A stretch of DNA of 4,458 bases from IMG/VR virus record IMGVR_UViG_2690315994_000021; one strand, given 5' to 3'. The notes beneath the pieces are model-generated. The model saw nothing but the letters and a program-made list of their open reading frames with translations, searched no databases and was not told the DNA's origin. This DNA comes from a virus. Taxonomy: Duplodnaviria > Heunggongvirae > Uroviricota > Caudoviricetes. Below, piece after piece: positions 1 through 4,458 of the stretch; position 1 is the stretch's first letter, and the number at the start of each line of letters is the position of its first letter. The position numbers and the translations under genes were made by a program.

Positions 1-68
1 GCGATCTGCTGGTAGTGACGCGCCCAGCTCTGAGCCTCAAGACGATCCTGAATGTAATAAGCGTTCAT
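1..68 (-). CDS. Hypothetical prophage early-region protein, 5' end only (gene continues beyond the left edge)
   Basis: Minus-strand ATG at 68-66 opens a frame that stays open to position 1 ([23 protein letters not shown]...). AGGAG (plus 76-80 as ctcct) lies 7 nt upstream of the ATG. Same orientation as the upstream minus gene, consistent with a leftward operon. The N-terminus looks familiar from E. coli prophage small proteins, but I cannot name it reliably. Confidence 0.55.
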
Positions 69-143
69 GGCTGAACTCCTGAAAATGGCTGTGAAAATAT
101 CGCCCGCGAAATGCCAGGCTGATTAGGAAAACAGGAAAGGGGA

Positions 144-434
144 TTAGTGATTCAGGCCGTTACCGCGTCCGTCGAGAAAAACTTCCACGAGCAAATCACG
201 GGTATAAGTGCGCTCGATGCCGCGATGCAGATATAGCCGTCCGCGTAAATTAGCTGATGCAGTCCAGGTACCATCTTTGTGTTTGACCAGCATTCCTGGC
301 ATGACCGCACCGCGATTAACGGTCTGCGTTCCGTAATGTTGATGAACCATAAAAACTCCTGCCCGTAAGCTGGGCTGCTGAACATATATAGACTTCTGCG
401 CGTATTCAGGCGGTGGATGGCCGCCGGTTGTCAT
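144..434 (-). CDS. Hypothetical small prophage protein, first gene downstream of the leftward promoter (start uncertain: TTG 554, ATG 434 or ATG 350)
   Basis: The track ORF 144..554 starts at a TTG with no SD, and its first 40 codons are rich in rare Arg/Gly codons (AGG, CGG, CGA, GGA, GGG). ATG at 434 has GAGG about 10 nt upstream. ATG at 350 has a strong AGGAG 5 nt upstream. Stop is TAA at 146-144. The body has ordinary codon usage at about 50 percent GC. No family assigned. Confidence 0.5.
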
Positions 435-617
435 AACTAAGCCGCCTCGTTGAAGCGACTGAGGTATGAAGTGTTGAGTTGATTTCAGCTGGTCACACCG
501 ACGTTCACGCGTCCGTTTCACCCCTCGCACTCCCCGGAGCCTGCCGAAATTCAAGCTGCGGATCTAAGCGGTCATCGCAACGGTGAAGTTATAAATTTTG
601 TGATACCAACATCGATG

Positions 618-671
618 CAATAGCATGACAATAGCAATGGCTATTGGTGTGGTCAATAGCAATTGGTATTG
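618..671 (-). promoter_or_regulatory. Left operator-like cluster with embedded leftward sigma70-like promoter (pL/oL analogue)
   Basis: Heptamer CAATAGC at 618-624, 629-635 and 654-660; inverse GCTATTG at 640-646; GGTATTG at 665-671. These form an 18-bp palindrome CAATAGCAATGGCTATTG (629-646) and an imperfect copy (654-671). On the minus strand, TTGACC (plus 651-656) - 17 bp - TATTGT (plus 628-633) gives a promoter firing leftward from about 620. The same heptamer recurs in the cI-cro intergenic region. Confidence 0.45.
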
Positions 672-907
672 ATAATGTTTGATATACTTGTTCTGATTGA
701 TAATTAAATGAATTTTTATAAAAAAGAGTATGAAGACTTATTGGTGTGGCTGAAATTTGTACAGCTTTAATGTGCCTCGTGACAGAGGGGCATCGGGTTG
801 TGGTGAGCTCGGTAGGTTGGCAGCAAATTTAATCGAATATTGGTAGTCTGAGTTCTTATGTGTATTTTTTTTAGTCAGTTGCTAAATGATACATAAATGA
901 CTTATTA

Positions 908-932
908 GCCCCGCCATCGCTTTGTACGGGGC
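908..932. terminator. GC-rich hairpin immediately 3' of the SIR2-like gene; candidate intrinsic terminator, possibly bidirectional
   Basis: gccccg (908-913) pairs with cggggc (927-932) around a 13-nt loop. On the plus strand it is followed by a T-rich run (gtttatttaatttatctttt). On the minus-strand RNA it lies just after the stop codon (939-941) and is followed by a moderately U-rich tail. Confidence 0.35.
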
Positions 933-938
933 GTTTAT

Positions 939-1877
939 TTAATTTATCTTTTCAACATTTCCATGAATCAACAAGTCGTAGGCAAGAAATAGTTTCCTAT
1001 ACTGGGTTTTTAAATTGTCAACGTCGCATGTCTTGAATTGAACAAACGCTTCTTTTTTAACATAATCTTCAATCTCCTCTTTGGGGATATTTTTTATGTT
1101 CTTAATGACTATAGACAATTCTTTGTACTTTTTGAACGTTGCATCCTTTATATCTTTGATGTTGGTGTAAATTTTATTTGCATTGATTTTATCTAAGGTG
1201 ATTTTATTGAGCAAGTCGTCTAGTTTTCCGTGGCGTTCAATGCGTTGATTTAGTTTTAACACATATTTAGCTGGCAAACTTAACTCTTTCAAATTACATG
1301 AGGTTATAGTTTTTGAAAATGGAAGTTGTAATGAGTTTACTGAGCCTAATATGAAATCTATGGCTAATTTATTAGATATTTCATTTTTATTAAATAAGTA
1401 ATCTTCAAGATAATTTATTTCTTTAACTTGTGTGAATACATACTTTTTATCGCCTAGAGCAACAACTAAATTTTTTCCTTGTTTAACACTTTCTTCAAGT
1501 CTGTCTAAGTCAGAAGGTGAAACCAATAGAGTATCTAAGTGCCCTTTTTCACCCTCATTAATGATAAGTGTTTTGATGGCTCTTTGATACCTTAAAACAT
1601 CATAAGGTGAGAGCCCTTCATCAACAGCACTGATCTCATCATAGATCTGTTTATAGTTATCTGTTTTAACAGATGTATATGTAATTTGTAGCTGTTGATC
1701 GGTAATCTGTTTTGGTACTACTTCCTGTTCATTCTCTTTATATTCAATCAAAATTATTCTTTCAGCTGATTTTCGACCATCTTCTCTAGGTAGTTGTGAG
1801 GAAAAATCAGAAAGAAGTTTCTTTACATTCCTGTCAGTTAAAGAATATCCAAGAAAAACTATTGGATTTTTAATCAT
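939..1877 (-). CDS. SIR2-family protein, 3' portion: longest start-codon-initiated segment of a longer disrupted gene (frame stays open upstream to 2132)
   Basis: The 312-aa track ORF starts MIKNPIVFLGYSLTDR, which looks like an internal SIR2-like strand and not an N-terminus. Translating the same frame upstream of the ATG gives, with no stop until 2135-2133, ...NINKKAKIIITTNYDAFIKNLL...WSELYKIHGDIKDPH...: a TTNYD motif (2102-2088) and an HG motif (H at 1979-1977). This matches the sirtuin TQNID and catalytic HG motifs. There is no ATG, GTG or TTG in frame between 2132 and 1877, so the track boundary is an artefact of start-codon searching. Confidence 0.75.
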   Translation of the reverse strand: MIKNPIVFLGYSLTDRNVKKLLSDFSSQLPREDGRKSAERIILIEYKENEQEVVPKQITDQQLQITYTSVKTDNYKQIYDEISAVDEGLSPYDVLRYQRAIKTLIINEGEKGHLDTLLVSPSDLDRLEESVKQGKNLVVALGDKKYVFTQVKEINYLEDYLFNKNEISNKLAIDFILGSVNSLQLPFSKTITSCNLKELSLPAKYVLKLNQRIERHGKLDDLLNKITLDKINANKIYTNIKDIKDATFKKYKELSIVIKNIKNIPKEEIEDYVKKEAFVQFKTCDVDNLKTQYRKLFLAYDLLIHGNVEKIN

Positions 1878-2525
1878 GTTAGATAGTATCTTGGCACTAA
1901 TGAGTATAGATTTGTTGTCATATTTTTCGTAATCATCTTTATTTATGATTATTGAGTGTGGATCCTTTATATCACCATGGATTTTGTATAACTCACTCCA
2001 TCCAATAGTATCTTCGAAAAAACCATTATTTCCAATATAGAGTTTTGGAGTTACATTTTGCTCTTGAAGTAAATTTTTTATGAAAGCATCATAATTTGTA
2101 GTGATGATTATCTTGGCCTTTTTATTAATGTTTTAAATGATGCTAATTCATCAAGATTTACATCCTTTCTGATTGTGTTATTAGAAAATCTTTGGCATAT
2201 AGCGTATTTAAATGGTGAAATATCTTCACTAAAAACCCTCTTGGCATCTAGTCCATTTAATTTTAATTTGCCAGTCCTAAACAATAGATTGTAATCATTT
2301 TCAATTTTACTTGCTGCCTCTGTATAAATCTTATGATCGATATCATTATCACTGTTATTTTTATGTGATTCTTTTATTGTTAAAAGATAACTATAGAAAT
2401 CATTTGTGGGATTTGTTATTTTCCAATACTCGTTTAATAGCTCTTCCCACGTTGGGTAGTTCTCTAAATATCTTTTTGAAATGCCTGAGCCAATAAAGAC
2501 TATTGGGTAATTTTTGAATTCAAAA

Positions 2526-2535
2526 TTTTTTTTTT
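2526..2535 (-). repeat. A10 (plus-strand T10) homopolymer spanning codons 3-5 of the SIR2-like gene; frameshift or slippage site
   Basis: Ten consecutive T at plus 2526-2535, read directly. On the coding strand it gives ATG TCA AAA AAA AAA TTT TGA. A 9-A version reads straight into the SIR2 N-terminal domain. Confidence 0.9.
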
Positions 2536-2582
2536 GACATATCCATATACCTTAAGCTCTGCTTGAAACATCCATTCTATAA

Positions 2583-2611
2583 ATTATGAGGATGTCAGCA
2601 TGTCTCACCAA
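2583..2611 (-). promoter_or_regulatory. Possible sigma70-like promoter for the SIR2-like gene within the cI-SIR2 spacer
   Basis: On the minus strand: TTGGTG (plus 2606-2611) - 17 bp - CATAAT (plus 2583-2588), about 40 nt upstream of the ATG at 2540. The -35 is weak. No strong terminator is visible between cI and the SIR2-like gene, so read-through from the cI promoter is also plausible. Confidence 0.2.
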
Positions 2612-2652
2612 AACATCATCTGGTTATCTTGATGAAATCTGTCATTAATAAT

Positions 2653-3345
2653 CTACCCATGTTTTCTATATGTCTGTGGCATGCTCCCAATAACTTTCCC
2701 AAATATAAATACCCGATTCATTTCGTCTTTTTCGATCGGGTCCCATGGTGAGTAGCTCTTGTTATCAGAGATAACCAGCAGCTTATCCTTCATCATTTGC
2801 AGGCGCTTTACATGGGCTGTGTCGTCGTACAGAAACGCATAGATACCATCACCGTCGAAAGATTTAACAGTGATATCAACGAACAGAAGATCACCTGGTT
2901 CGATCGTTCCTGACATGCTGTCACCGCGTACGTTAATGATGCGGATATTTTCTGCCTTCCTGCCATCGAACATGTGACGAGCATCGTCAAACGAGTACTC
3001 AACCGAGCGTAGGACTTCTACAAACTCACGGTTGATGACACCCGGCCCAGCACTGACTTCTATATCAAGAACGTCAATCTTGAAGTATTTGGAATGGTTG
3101 ACAGCAGGCTTCCCTGATTGTTGACCGTCATTTCTCATCGGGCCTATGCCTGATGAGAGCCACTCTGTTCGAACACCCAATGCATTAGCTATTTCAACAA
3201 TTTTTGTTGAGCCGCGTGCGTTGCCGCTTGTCAGTCTCCAGATTGTGGGTTGAGCTACGCCAGACGCCTTTGCAAGAGCGCCTTGAGACATTCCAGATTG
3301 TTCCATCGCTAGGTTTAAGCGATCAGCAAGAGTTTCTTTTTTCAT
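2653..3345 (-). CDS. CI-like prophage repressor: N-terminal XRE-type HTH plus C-terminal LexA/S24 autopeptidase domain
   Basis: The track ORF 2653..3381 starts at a TTG; the likely true start is ATG 3345 (MKKETLADRLNLAMEQSGMSQGALAKASGVAQPTIWRL...), giving 230 aa. The HTH is in the N-terminus. The C-terminal part has VRGDSMSGTIEPGDLLFVD (Ser nucleophile) and HVKRL (Lys), matching the LexA/UmuD/lambda CI Ser-Lys dyad pattern, with a candidate Ala-Gly cleavage site in EVSAGPG. It is divergent from a Cro-like gene. Confidence 0.85.
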   Translation of the reverse strand: MKKETLADRLNLAMEQSGMSQGALAKASGVAQPTIWRLTSGNARGSTKIVEIANALGVRTEWLSSGIGPMRNDGQQSGKPAVNHSKYFKIDVLDIEVSAGPGVINREFVEVLRSVEYSFDDARHMFDGRKAENIRIINVRGDSMSGTIEPGDLLFVDITVKSFDGDGIYAFLYDDTAHVKRLQMMKDKLLVISDNKSYSPWDPIEKDEMNRVFIFGKVIGSMPQTYRKHG

Positions 3346-3354
3346 AAGTTTTAA

Positions 3355-3447
3355 TTTATACGCTTGCGTATTGATGGTCAAAACACGTTTTGCTATTGAT
3401 TGGATTAATACGCATTGCTATTATCCATTCATTGTAATACCAATAGG
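3355..3447. promoter_or_regulatory. Right operator/promoter region: back-to-back divergent promoters for cI (leftward) and cro (rightward) with operator-like heptamers
   Basis: Rightward: TTGATT (3396-3401) - 17 bp - TATTAT (3419-3424), then AGGA (3445-3448) 7 nt before the cro ATG at 3456. Leftward (minus): TTGACC (plus 3376-3381) - 15 bp - TATAAA (plus 3355-3360), ending about 7-10 nt before the cI ATG at 3345, implying a leaderless or near-leaderless cI mRNA as for lambda pRM. Operator-like heptamers: GCTATTG 3392-3398, GCTATTA 3417-3423, CAATAGG 3441-3447. Confidence 0.45.
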
Positions 3448-3455
3448 AATTGATA

Positions 3456-3683
3456 ATGACAAATCAAACCATTCAACTCGCAATCAGTATTACAGGTAGT
3501 CAAAAACGACTGGCAGATCTATGCGGTGTAGCCCAGCCCACTGTTTGGCGTTGGCTACACGGTGGCGGAATTGATGCCCGCTATGTAATGAAAATTGTCT
3601 CAGCCACTGGTGGAAAGATTAAACCAGCAGATATTCGTCCCGACCTTGCACCATTGTTTAACGCGAGTAATTCTGCCGCCTAA
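3456..3683 (+). CDS. Cro-like HTH regulator (YdaS-like family)
   Basis: The track ORF starts at TTG 3450, but ATG 3456 has AGGA at the right spacing. Protein MTNQTIQLAISITGSQKRLADLCGVAQPTVWRWLHGGG...TGGKIKPADIRPDL matches, from memory, the YdaS/Cro-like pattern (ITGSQ, HTH, TGG, DLRPD). It is divergent from the repressor. Stop is TAA at 3681-3683. Confidence 0.8.
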   Translation: MTNQTIQLAISITGSQKRLADLCGVAQPTVWRWLHGGGIDARYVMKIVSATGGKIKPADIRPDLAPLFNASNSAA

Positions 3684-3707
3684 ACTGCGGCGTTAACTGA
3701 TAAGGCA

Positions 3708-4253
3708 ATGACTATGCAACCACTTACATACCAACAGACTAGCGGATTTAGCCCGACTGCGGTGATAAATCGTTCTCAAACAAAACAGGCGCCAGGCCAC
3801 GAAAAAATCCGTGATGCCGTTCGCGCTTGGTCGGCTGCAGATAATCAGGATGTTGTTGCCGCACTCATTGTGAATGAGTATCGGGAGCAGGGCGGCGGCA
3901 CCATCGATTTCCCTGATGATGTCAGCCGTGCACGCCAGAAGCTGTTCCGTTTCCTCGATAACAAATTCGATTCTGAAAAATACCGAAATAACGTGCGTGA
4001 ACTGACCCCGGCAATTCTGGCGGTACTACCGCTGGAATATCGCGGCCACCTGGTTGAGCAGGATAGCTTCATGGCTCGGTTGGCTGAAATGGATAAGGAA
4101 CTCAGTGAGGCAAAGCAGGCGGTCATTCTCAACGCACCACGCCACCAGAAACTGAAGGAAATGAGTGAAGGTATTGTGTCGATGTTTCGTGTGGACCCGG
4201 ATCTGGCTGGTCCATTAATGGCGATGGTTACCACCATGCTGGGGGCAATATGA
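3708..4253 (+). CDS. CII-position regulatory protein, YdaT-like family
   Basis: 181-aa ORF directly after cro (AAGG upstream; alternative ATG at 3714). Motifs EYREQGGG and LTPAILAVLPLEYRGHL resemble what I recall of E. coli Rac YdaT-family proteins. Family assignment is from memory and not verified. Confidence 0.7.
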   Translation: MTMQPLTYQQTSGFSPTAVINRSQTKQAPGHEKIRDAVRAWSAADNQDVVAALIVNEYREQGGGTIDFPDDVSRARQKLFRFLDNKFDSEKYRNNVRELTPAILAVLPLEYRGHLVEQDSFMARLAEMDKELSEAKQAVILNAPRHQKLKEMSEGIVSMFRVDPDLAGPLMAMVTTMLGAI

Positions 4254-4420
4254 CAGGTTCAGAAATGGCGAAAGCCGGTCTGCGGGAACAGAGCCGACTT
4301 TCAGGTGCAAATCGTAACGCACTCATTGCGGAAGGAATTATGGCAAACACTGTGAACCGCCCCGGTTTTCCTGGAGAGTGTTTTATCTGTGAACTCAGGC
4401 TGCCAGATCATCGTTTCTGA
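4250..4420 (+). CDS. Small hypothetical ORF (56 aa), translationally coupled to the upstream gene
   Basis: Its ATG (4250-4252) overlaps the upstream TGA stop (4251-4253) in an ATGA arrangement. Protein MTGSEMAKAGLREQSRLSGANRNALIAEGIMANTVNRPGFPGECFICELRLPDHRF contains a CxxC. It is below the ORF-track size cutoff and I recognise no homology. Confidence 0.3.
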   Translation: MTGSEMAKAGLREQSRLSGANRNALIAEGIMANTVNRPGFPGECFICELRLPDHRF

Positions 4421-4458
4421 TGGAAGCATAATAAGCTTTTTCTGCTTCTGCCGGAGGG

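What the first reader, a model, noticed from the sequence alone, without database searches (positions are those of the whole stretch)
939..3381. Defence cargo in the rexAB-equivalent slot, likely co-expressed with the repressor in lysogens
Gene order on the minus strand is cI-like repressor, then the SIR2-like gene, then a hairpin, then the operator/promoter cluster, then early genes. This mirrors lambda cI-rexA-rexB-timm-oL/pL-N. The insert is sharply AT-rich relative to the repressor and early genes, consistent with a horizontally acquired moron. No convincing terminator separates cI from the SIR2-like gene, so it may be transcribed from the repressor promoter during lysogeny. The S24 domain in the repressor suggests SOS induction would then shut off or change its expression.
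Basis: inference. Interest (0 to 1): 0.7.

Follow-up and report, generated by a model that had tools for sequence, protein, structure and literature searches.

The report
Broken SIR2 defence gene beside prophage repressor
Just downstream of the repressor gene of a decaying E. coli lambda-like prophage, in the swap-in slot where phage lambda keeps rexAB, sits a SIR2-type candidate anti-phage gene, but this copy is broken by two single-base frameshifts, so it is an ordinary, inactivated example of a known arrangement.

Summary
On the minus strand the order is cI-type repressor (2653-3345), a 112-nt spacer with no terminator, an AT-rich SIR2 gene (939-2540, 29.6% GC against 46-53% in the flanks), a hairpin (908-933), OL/pL (628-671) and then kil and gam.

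Prophages with the same cI carry at least five other cargoes in this slot, or nothing. Four of those cargoes match PADLOC defence or candidate-defence families.

The intact protein (533 aa) matches PADLOC candidate PDC-S25 and phrog_2695 over its full length. It keeps the catalytic Asn and His of ThsA-type NADases and has a helical-repeat C-terminal domain with no specific relative. Homologues also lie downstream of repressors in Leclercia, Morganella, Providencia and Streptococcus phages.

Three corrections are needed:
- The window's copy is not an open reading frame. It has two homopolymer frameshifts, one shared with 3 of 166 genomes and one with none.
- The hairpin is not a canonical terminator on the cI strand.
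- No N gene is present.

An IS3-family element also interrupts replication gene O.

Co-transcription with cI is plausible but untested. The cI-to-pL hotspot is already published (rexAB, bstA). I rate this a new member of a known kind, of modest interest.

The parts
1..68 (-). 5' part of the gam gene (early-left operon)
   Evidence: Annotated as a Gam family protein in the 99.9% identical locus L001.
144..350 (-). kil (cell-division inhibitor), the first annotated early-left gene
   Evidence: phrog_294 Kil, E 1.3e-37; annotation in L001 and L002.
351..587 (-). Early-left leader, conserved backbone; homology with sister phages ends at 587
   Evidence: 97-99% identical in all cargo variants. No gene is annotated here and there is no Rfam match.
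588..2652 (-). AT-rich replaceable block (30.9% GC): diverged OL/pL, a unique 717-907 segment, the hairpin, the SIR2 gene and the spacer
   Evidence: blastn against the same-cI phage 4A7 aligns only 1-587 and 2653-4352. GC values. The operator stretch is about 72% similar to sister variants.
629..671 (.). OL: two 18-nt near-palindromic operator-like sites (629-646 and 654-671)
   Evidence: 8 matches in the window against 0.1 expected, all at OL or OR.
628..656 (-). pL candidate (TTGACC, 17-nt spacer, TATTGT, with TG), overlapping the operators
908..933 (.). G+C-rich hairpin 5 nt after the SIR2 stop codon; no U-tract on the minus strand, T-run on the + strand
   Evidence: -18.1 kcal/mol, z -2.2.
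939..2540 (-). SIR2_2-family gene (PDC-S25 / phrog_2695), pseudogenised here by two frameshifts; the intact allele encodes 533 aa
2526..2535 (-). Frameshift 1: T10 run (A10 in sense, codons 3-5) where the intact allele has 9
   Evidence: Shared by 3 of 166 genomes.
2119..2123 (-). Frameshift 2: T5 run (A5 in sense) where the intact allele has 6
   Evidence: Shared by 0 of 166 genomes.
939..1643 (-). Region encoding the C-terminal helical-repeat domain (residues 300-533 plus the stop codon), in frame in the window
2541..2652 (-). cI-to-SIR2 spacer: no terminator, only a weak promoter-like match (2611..2583, TTGGTG-17-CATAAT), Shine-Dalgarno-like AAGG at 2553-2550
2653..3345 (-). cI-type repressor (230 aa): HTH_3 plus Peptidase_S24, with Ala-Gly 99-100, Ser143 in GDSM and Lys180
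3353..3381 (-). pRM candidate (TTGACC-17-TAAATT); its -10 element ends 7 nt before the cI ATG
3396..3458 (+). pR candidate (3396-3424) and OR operator-like sites (3406-3458)
3456..3683 (+). cro-like gene (YdaS family)
3714..4253 (+). cII-like gene (YdaT family)
4250..4352 (+). First ~34 codons of replication gene O, cut off by the IS element
4353..4458 (.). End of an IS3-family (IS629-like) insertion sequence
   Evidence: 98% identical to L002 7500-7601, beside an annotated IS3 transposase. Phage hits are annotated IS629.

Best explanation
Window 588-2652 is one of several interchangeable accessory modules that occupy the interval between the repressor gene and OL/pL in a family of E. coli lambdoid prophages. 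This is the known cI-N mosaic hotspot, where lambda carries rexAB and BTP1 carries bstA.

The cargo is a single gene of the SIR2_2 family (PADLOC candidate PDC-S25, phrog_2695). In its intact form the protein has 533 aa. The N-terminal part is a ThsA/DSR2-type SIR2 domain with the catalytic Asn149 and His188. The C-terminal part is an about 235-residue helical-repeat domain.

Inferred mechanism for intact alleles:
- The gene is transcribed in lysogens, mainly by read-through from the repressor promoters (pRM, and pRE during establishment).
- The helical domain senses a component of a superinfecting phage.
- The SIR2 domain then hydrolyses NAD+ and aborts the infection.
- RecA-driven cleavage of cI would end pRM-driven transcription on induction.

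In this window the gene is dead. Two single-base homopolymer indels put codons about 5-140 out of frame. The host prophage is also decaying, with an IS3-family element in replication gene O.

Basis of each step:
- Shown here: position, variability of the slot, family membership of the intact allele, conserved catalytic residues, the frameshifts.
- Inferred: NADase activity, anti-phage role, sensor role of the C-terminal domain, co-transcription with cI.
For: Position and order.

Variable slot:
- The same-cI phage 4A7 aligns only at 1-587 and 2653-4352.
- 166 of 5426 genomes have the module, always with this cI, while about 2000 others match cI only, with the break at the stop codon.
- At least five other cargoes or an empty slot occur. 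Four of them hit PADLOC families: PDC-M11, PDC-M66, PD-T4-6 and PDC-M63.

Family:
- PDC-S25 E 9.5e-235 over residues 3-526.
- SIR2_2 E 1.3e-23.
- phrog_2695 E 5e-201.

Catalytic residues: N149 and H188 align with ThsA N112 and H152. N149 is invariant and H188 is at least 90% conserved in 51 homologues.

Fold:
- The SIR2 domain matches DSR2, ThsA and KomC.
- The C-terminal domain is a helical repeat and is more divergent than the SIR2 part.

Coupling to the repressor:
- No terminator lies between cI and the cargo in 8 of 8 variants.
- Homologues lie directly downstream of, and co-oriented with, unrelated repressors in Leclercia, Morganella, Providencia and Streptococcus phage SVep1 (30-nt gap). 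In Streptococcus phage Javan227 two intervening genes separate repressor and homologue.
- The precedent is the cI-bstA operon, transcribed from the cI promoter across an 88-bp gap (PMC7067206, PMC8585504).

Pseudogene. IS in gene O.
Against: - No experiment on PDC-S25 was found. The only text hit merely lists it in an O157:H7 genome.
- No transcript data exist for this locus. A weak promoter-like match in the spacer (2611..2583) means independent transcription cannot be excluded.
- The hairpin after the gene is not a canonical terminator on the cI strand. The conserved backbone terminator of sister variants is missing, so how a pRM transcript would stop before pL is unclear.
- Both frameshifts lie in homopolymer runs and cancel each other (+1, -1). 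This is also the pattern expected from sequencing error.
- Some homologues are not next to a repressor (Atlantibacter, at a prophage end; Enterococcus, in an island).
Confidence: 0.72

Rival explanations
1. The two frameshifts are homopolymer sequencing or assembly errors, and the gene is intact and functional in the window's strain.
For: Both indels lie in A/T runs of 5-10 bases, and they are +1 and -1, so the frame is restored. 163 of 166 genomes do not share the window's 81-nt allele around site 1, and the records listed span 80 nt, consistent with A9 there; none of the 166 shares the window's allele at site 2. Repairing the two bases gives a 533-aa ORF with no stop codons.
Against: The A10 allele recurs in 3 independent complete assemblies, including DEC5E. 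The window has a further private substitution inside the gene (2078), so two of its three differences from DEC5E in 4352 nt fall in this gene. The prophage also has an IS element in gene O, which fits decay.
Confidence: 0.3
2. The gene is a self-contained moron, transcribed from its own promoter in the spacer and not coupled to cI transcription.
For: A TTGGTG-17-CATAAT match lies at 2611..2583. Each cargo variant brings its own, unrelated 5' spacer. In Atlantibacter and Enterococcus the homologue is not next to a repressor.
Against: The match has only 8 of 12 consensus positions and falls below the scan threshold. There is no terminator after cI in any variant. The gap is only 30 nt in SVep1. 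The nearest studied case, bstA, is transcribed from the cI promoter.
Confidence: 0.25
3. The SIR2 protein is not an anti-phage defence. It would instead serve the prophage in another way, for example as a deacylase, as an NAD-dependent regulator of lysogeny, or as an addiction toxin.
For: No experimental evidence for defence was found. Pfam, NCBIfam and PHROGs give no function beyond the SIR2 domain.
Against: The closest sequence and structure relatives of the SIR2 domain are the defence NADases ThsA, DSR2 and KomC, not sirtuin deacetylases. The slot's other occupants are defence or candidate-defence families. One homologue sits beside restriction-type nucleases.
Confidence: 0.1
4. The A9/A10 tract at codons 3-5 is a functional on/off switch, acting by slipped-strand phase variation or transcriptional slippage, rather than accidental damage.
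For: The length of the tract varies among otherwise near-identical O55:H7 strains: A10 in DEC5E, while DEC5A and TB182A do not share it and their matches span 80 nt, consistent with A9. From general knowledge, runs of 9 or more A are slippage-prone in E. coli.
Against: Only 3 of 166 genomes carry A10. Homologues in Leclercia and Morganella have no A-run at the start. The second frameshift at an A5 run cannot be explained this way.
Confidence: 0.08

Closest known systems
Lambda rexAB and the cI-N mosaic hotspot of lambdoid phages (Degnan et al. 2007, as cited in PMC8585504 and PMC7067206)
   Same: The position is the same: directly downstream of the repressor gene, on the same strand, and upstream of OL/pL. 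The content varies among phages that share the flanks, and the occupants are mostly defence-type genes.
   Different: The protein has no homology to RexA or RexB. It is one gene instead of two. No N gene follows pL. The SIR2 module also replaces the backbone terminator and carries a diverged OL.
BstA of Salmonella prophage BTP1 (PMC8585504, PMC7067206)
   Same: Both are single-gene abortive-infection-type cargo downstream of cI. Both associate with repressor loci across genera. A short spacer with no terminator separates cI from the cargo (88 bp for bstA, 112 nt here).
   Different: The protein family is unrelated. Co-transcription and defence are demonstrated for bstA but not for this gene. 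No counterpart of the aba self-immunity element was looked for or seen.
ThsA (Thoeris) SIR2 NADase, PDB 6LHX and 8BTO
   Same: It is the best sequence match among solved structures (E 3.8e-12 over residues 145-286). The catalytic Asn and His are conserved and the SIR2 fold is shared.
   Different: This protein has no SLOG domain, and no ThsB/TIR partner is nearby. Its C-terminal domain is a helical repeat. PADLOC ThsA models match only the SIR2 core.
DSR2 (single-protein SIR2 defence that senses the phage tail tube), PDB 8WY8 and others
   Same: It is the top Foldseek hit. Both are single polypeptides with an N-terminal SIR2 NADase domain and a C-terminal all-helical region. From general knowledge, DSR2's helical C-terminal region is its sensor.
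   Different: DSR2 is about 1000 aa against 533 aa here. No DSR2 model appears among the PADLOC hits at E 0.01 or better. The structural match covers the SIR2 domain only (TM about 0.35 normalised to the query).
PADLOC PDC-S25 / phrog_2695
   Same: The intact allele matches both over its full length (E 9.5e-235 and 5e-201).
   Different: Both are computational groupings of unknown or candidate function. The window's own copy is frameshifted.

Membership tests
Lambdoid cI-to-pL accessory hotspot (rexAB slot) | Lies between the 3' end of the repressor gene and OL/pL, on the repressor's strand | tested here: met
   cI 2653-3345, gene 939-2540, OL/pL 628-671, all on the minus strand.
Lambdoid cI-to-pL accessory hotspot (rexAB slot) | Content differs among phages that share the flanking repressor and early-left genes | tested here: met
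   At least five other cargoes or an empty slot occur with the same or related cI. Homology breaks at the cI stop codon.
Lambdoid cI-to-pL accessory hotspot (rexAB slot) | Transcribed with the repressor in lysogens | not testable with these tools
   Only indirect support: no terminator in the spacer in 8 of 8 variants, and the bstA precedent.
Lambdoid cI-to-pL accessory hotspot (rexAB slot) | Intrinsic terminator (timm-like) between the cargo and OL | tested here: inconclusive
   A hairpin is present at 908-933 but has no U-tract on the minus strand. The conserved terminator of the 7 sister variants is absent here.
RexA/RexB proteins | Sequence homology to RexA or RexB | tested here: not met
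   Pfam and PADLOC scans return only SIR2-type families.
PADLOC PDC-S25 / phrog_2695 | Full-length match to the family profile | tested here: met
   The intact allele gives E 9.5e-235 (residues 3-526 of 533) and phrog_2695 E 5e-201.
PADLOC PDC-S25 / phrog_2695 | Uninterrupted reading frame in this window | tested here: not met
   Two frameshifts, at the 2526-2535 and 2119-2123 runs.
PADLOC PDC-S25 / phrog_2695 | Demonstrated anti-phage activity | not testable with these tools
   No experimental report was found in the held literature.
Defence-type SIR2 NADases (ThsA/DSR2/KomC class) | SIR2 fold with the catalytic Asn and His | tested here: met
   N149 and H188 align with ThsA N112 and H152 and are conserved. 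Foldseek hits have E down to 1.7e-9.
Defence-type SIR2 NADases (ThsA/DSR2/KomC class) | NAD+ hydrolysis triggered by infection | not testable with these tools
   Needs biochemistry or in-vivo NAD+ measurement.
Thoeris (ThsA+ThsB) | SLOG domain in ThsA and an adjacent TIR-domain ThsB | tested here: not met
   No SLOG or TIR hit in Pfam. Neighbours in 6 contexts are phage regulators or early genes.
DSR2 | Match to DSR2 profiles and an about 1000-aa architecture | tested here: not met
   533 aa, and no DSR2 model among the PADLOC hits. Structural similarity is limited to the SIR2 domain.
LexA/lambda-cI type autocleaving repressor (Peptidase S24) | HTH plus S24 domain, with an Ala-Gly cleavage site and a Ser/Lys dyad | tested here: met
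   HTH_3 and Peptidase_S24. AG 99-100, GDSM 141-144, KR 180-181. Cleavage itself was not tested.

The most novel reading that the evidence does not exclude
PDC-S25 / phrog_2695 may be a prophage-specialised SIR2 NADase whose placement behind the repressor gene is itself functional. On this reading, transcriptional coupling to cI keeps it on in lysogens. It also switches it off when cI is cleaved, which would give the resident prophage self-immunity during induction. The unclassified helical-repeat C-terminal domain would be a new sensor of a phage component. The association with repressors holds from Enterobacterales to Streptococcus phages.
Probability: 0.2. Interest if true: 0.6.

Novelty: new member of a known kind. 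Interest (0 to 1): 0.33.

Why it matters
The result adds one more documented occupant, a SIR2-type candidate, to the repressor-adjacent hotspot of lambdoid prophages. In one E. coli phage lineage this slot alone cycles through at least six different cargoes, four of which match PADLOC defence or candidate-defence families. The SIR2 family (PDC-S25, phrog_2695) is still untested. Its repeated placement behind unrelated repressors in Gram-negative and Gram-positive temperate phages makes it a sensible candidate for experiments. It also provides a test case for how a prophage avoids its own NAD+-depleting defence. The window's own copy is a broken relic, so nothing functional is expected from this particular strain.

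Tried and rejected
- Rfam scan of the whole window at E up to 1 gave no match, so there is no known RNA element (put, nut or sRNA) in the leader or in 700-938.
- NCBIfam has no family for the SIR2 protein.
- A literature search for GevT/GevA (names in the PhiR phage records) and for the PhiR/ECOR phage collection found nothing relevant. PDC-S25 appears once, as a genome listing only. A search for prophage SIR2 with repressor and NAD depletion found nothing specific.
- I considered whether the hairpin is the group's timm terminator and rejected this. The sister variants share a different, canonical terminator that the SIR2 module lacks.
- I considered whether the SIR2 cassette moves together with its flanks and rejected this. 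Similarity to loci in other genera stops at the ORF, plus about 13 nt upstream in Leclercia.
- I looked for an N-like gene. No Pfam hit was found for the 136-aa in-frame extension of kil.
Full report
**Source and layout.** The window is the immunity region of an E. coli lambdoid prophage. It is 99.9% identical over 1-4355 to O55:H7 strains, where the prophage sits at the tRNA-Arg/intD (DLP12) site. The same module also occurs in an mlrA-integrated prophage of O157:H7.

On the minus strand the features run in this order:
- cI (2653-3345; HTH_3 plus Peptidase_S24)
- a 112-nt spacer
- the SIR2-like gene (939-2540)
- a hairpin (908-933)
- two 18-nt operator-like palindromes overlapped by a TTGACC-17-TATTGT promoter (628-671)
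- a 237-nt conserved leader
- kil (144-350) and the start of gam

On the plus strand lie a pR-like promoter, cro (YdaS family), cII (YdaT family) and the start of replication gene O. Operator-like sites occur only at 629-671 and 3406-3458, with 8 matches against 0.1 expected. The pRM candidate's -10 element ends 7 nt before the cI ATG. This would give a leaderless cI mRNA, as in lambda (inference).

**Checking the observation.** Gene order, the S24 repressor, the AT-rich step and the lack of a terminator between cI and the gene are all confirmed. GC is 29.6% in the gene, against 46.3% in cI and 50-53% in the flanks. Three points need correction.

1. The gene is not open in this window.
   - Compared with the intact 1602-nt allele of NCTC9699, the window has an extra base in the A-run at codons 3-5 (T10 at 2526-2535) and lacks a base in the run at 2119-2123.
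   - The shifts are +1 and -1. About 136 codons are out of frame, including the GxGxS loop, and the longest ORF left (939-1877) lacks the catalytic residues.
   - Of the 166 complete E. coli genomes that carry the gene, 3 share the first shift and none shares the second.
   - The window differs from DEC5E at only three positions in 4352 nt, and two of them lie in this gene.
2. The hairpin is real (-18.1 kcal/mol, z -2.2) but has a T-run only on the plus strand.
3. No N homologue follows pL.

**Is it variable cargo?** Yes.
- Phage 4A7 has the same cI, cro and cII at 97% identity but aligns only at 1-587 and 2653-4352.
- In the complete E. coli genomes the SIR2 module is present in 166 of 5426, always with this cI.
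- About 2000 other genomes match only cI or its S24 half, and the break falls at the cI stop codon.
- An evenly spaced sample of the ranking suggests roughly 550 genomes have this cI without SIR2.

The slot otherwise holds the following:

| Cargo | Where seen | PADLOC family |
|---|---|---|
| ASCH protein plus 353-aa protein | 4A7, PhiR47_2 | PDC-M11 |
| HipA_2 plus DUF3037 | PhiR5_1, O157:H16 | PDC-M66 (E 6e-15 and 3.8e-16 in PhiR5_1; in O157:H16 only the DUF3037 protein, E 2.6e-8) |
| Ser/Thr kinase plus a small protein | S1-KEN-04-A | PD-T4-6 models |
| DUF6932 plus 310-aa protein | C41 | PDC-M63 |
| DUF7946/DUF7947 protein | CE0026a | not scanned against PADLOC |
| nothing | PhiR34_1 | not applicable |

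All seven non-SIR2 variants lack a terminator between cI and the cargo. They share one canonical backbone terminator after the cargo (CCCGGCCACCGTGCCGGG followed by TTTTCTTTTG, with a 2-nt variant in CE0026a). They also share the kil-to-OL backbone at 86-97% identity, 95-97% among the variants with the same cI.

The SIR2 variant is the odd one. It lacks that terminator, its operator stretch is only about 72% similar, and 717-938 is unique to it. It therefore arose by replacement of a larger block that includes OL/pL, not by simple insertion into the slot.

**The protein.**
- The intact allele (533 aa) matches PADLOC PDC-S25 over its full length (E 9.5e-235).
- It matches phrog_2695 (unknown function, E 5e-201) and Pfam SIR2_2 (residues 144-283), and nothing in NCBIfam.
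- The best solved relatives are the ThsA proteins and KomC. N149 and H188 align with ThsA N112 and H152.
- In 51 homologues N149 and the glycine loop are invariant, and H188 is at least 90% conserved.
- An AlphaFold model (pLDDT 81) matches DSR2, ThsA and KomC through the SIR2 domain only.
- The protein is not Thoeris (no SLOG domain, no TIR partner) and not DSR2 (half the size, no profile hit).

**Distribution and context.** Full-length homologues occur in Enterobacterales, Morganellaceae and Firmicutes. In several cases the gene lies directly downstream of, and co-oriented with, a repressor that is unrelated to the one here:
- Leclercia, in a Rac-like prophage
- Morganella
- Providencia, after a small DUF3024 gene
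- Streptococcus phage SVep1, with a 30-nt gap

In Streptococcus phage Javan227 it also lies in the repressor-integrase module, after two intervening genes. In Atlantibacter it sits at a prophage end. In Enterococcus it sits in an island with nuclease genes. Nucleotide similarity between genera is confined to the ORF. The Leclercia and Morganella copies end with clean intrinsic terminators.

**Most likely working.**
- Shown: the position in the slot, the slot's variability, the family assignment, the conserved catalytic residues, and the broken frame.
- Inferred from the ThsA/DSR2 class and from the rexAB and bstA precedents: intact alleles are transcribed with the repressor in lysogens, the helical domain senses an incoming phage, and the SIR2 domain depletes NAD+ to abort infection. 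cI cleavage on SOS induction would end pRM-driven expression.

The published literature already describes the cI-N interval as a mosaic hotspot that carries rexAB and bstA. It shows cI-bstA co-transcription across an 88-bp gap (PMC7067206, PMC8585504).

In this window the gene is inactive, unless the two homopolymer differences are sequencing errors (I give that about 0.3). The prophage is decaying as well. An IS3-family (IS629-like) end at 4353-4458 cuts gene O after about 34 codons.

**Verdict.** Co-expression is plausible but untested. The arrangement is a new member of a known kind: an uncharacterised SIR2 candidate in a well-known prophage hotspot. Interest is modest. The most useful lead is the cross-phylum coupling of this SIR2 family to repressor genes.

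Noticed in passing
window 4353-4458 (and gene O at 4250-4352): The last ~105 nt are the end of an IS3-family (IS629-like, TGAACCGCCCCGG...) element inserted in replication gene O after about 34 codons. The prophage in this strain should be replication-defective. This insertion is absent from the closest complete genomes.
   Followed up: yes
window 351-587: The leader between pL and kil is 97-99% conserved in all cargo variants, but it has no annotated gene, no N homologue and no Rfam match. The in-frame upstream extension of kil (ORF 144-554) contains an arginine-rich stretch (GVKRTRERR) that recalls N-protein RNA-binding motifs. Some phage records annotate a longer Kil that includes it.
   Followed up: no
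window 693-933: A 26-nt imperfect direct repeat (693-718 and 882-907, 77%) brackets a segment unique to the SIR2 module. That segment has a stable + strand fold at 760-830 (z -2.1). The 908-933 hairpin reads as a terminator only on the + strand. A small + strand transcript is possible, but no promoter was found.
   Followed up: partly
L003 1296-1330, and the equivalent in L004, L005, L018-L021: All seven non-SIR2 cargo variants share one canonical terminator (CCCGGCCACCGTGCCGGG then TTTTCTTTTG, with a 2-nt variant in L021) between the cargo and OL. The insertion point of this hotspot is therefore precisely the interval from the cI stop codon to that terminator. The SIR2 module lacks it and carries a diverged OL.
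   Followed up: yes
L003, L005, L018, L019, L020, L021 (slot between cI and OL): Alternative cargoes with the same cI backbone are PDC-M11 (ASCH plus 353 aa), HipA_2+DUF3037 (PDC-M66), a PD-T4-6-like Ser/Thr kinase with a small upstream gene, PDC-M63 (DUF6932 plus 310 aa) and a DUF7946/DUF7947 protein. Most are untested candidates.
   Followed up: partly
L017 2227-4593; L016 728-4569: Streptococcus temperate phages SVep1 and Javan227 carry 42-44% identical homologues of the SIR2 protein in the repressor-integrase lysogeny module. In SVep1 the gene starts 30 nt after the cI-like repressor.
   Followed up: partly
L022 12938-15677 (E. coli O157:H7 MB41-1): The same immunity module with an intact SIR2 gene sits in a prophage integrated next to mlrA (yehV), a different site from the argU/DLP12 site of the O55:H7 copies. 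In that strain the cro-like gene is annotated as frameshifted.
   Followed up: no
window 651: A private G (A in both comparison genomes) lies in the 7-nt spacer between the two OL operator-like sites.
   Followed up: no
window 3353-3381 and 3345: The pRM-like promoter's -10 element ends 7 nt upstream of the cI ATG, which implies a leaderless cI mRNA as in lambda.
   Followed up: no
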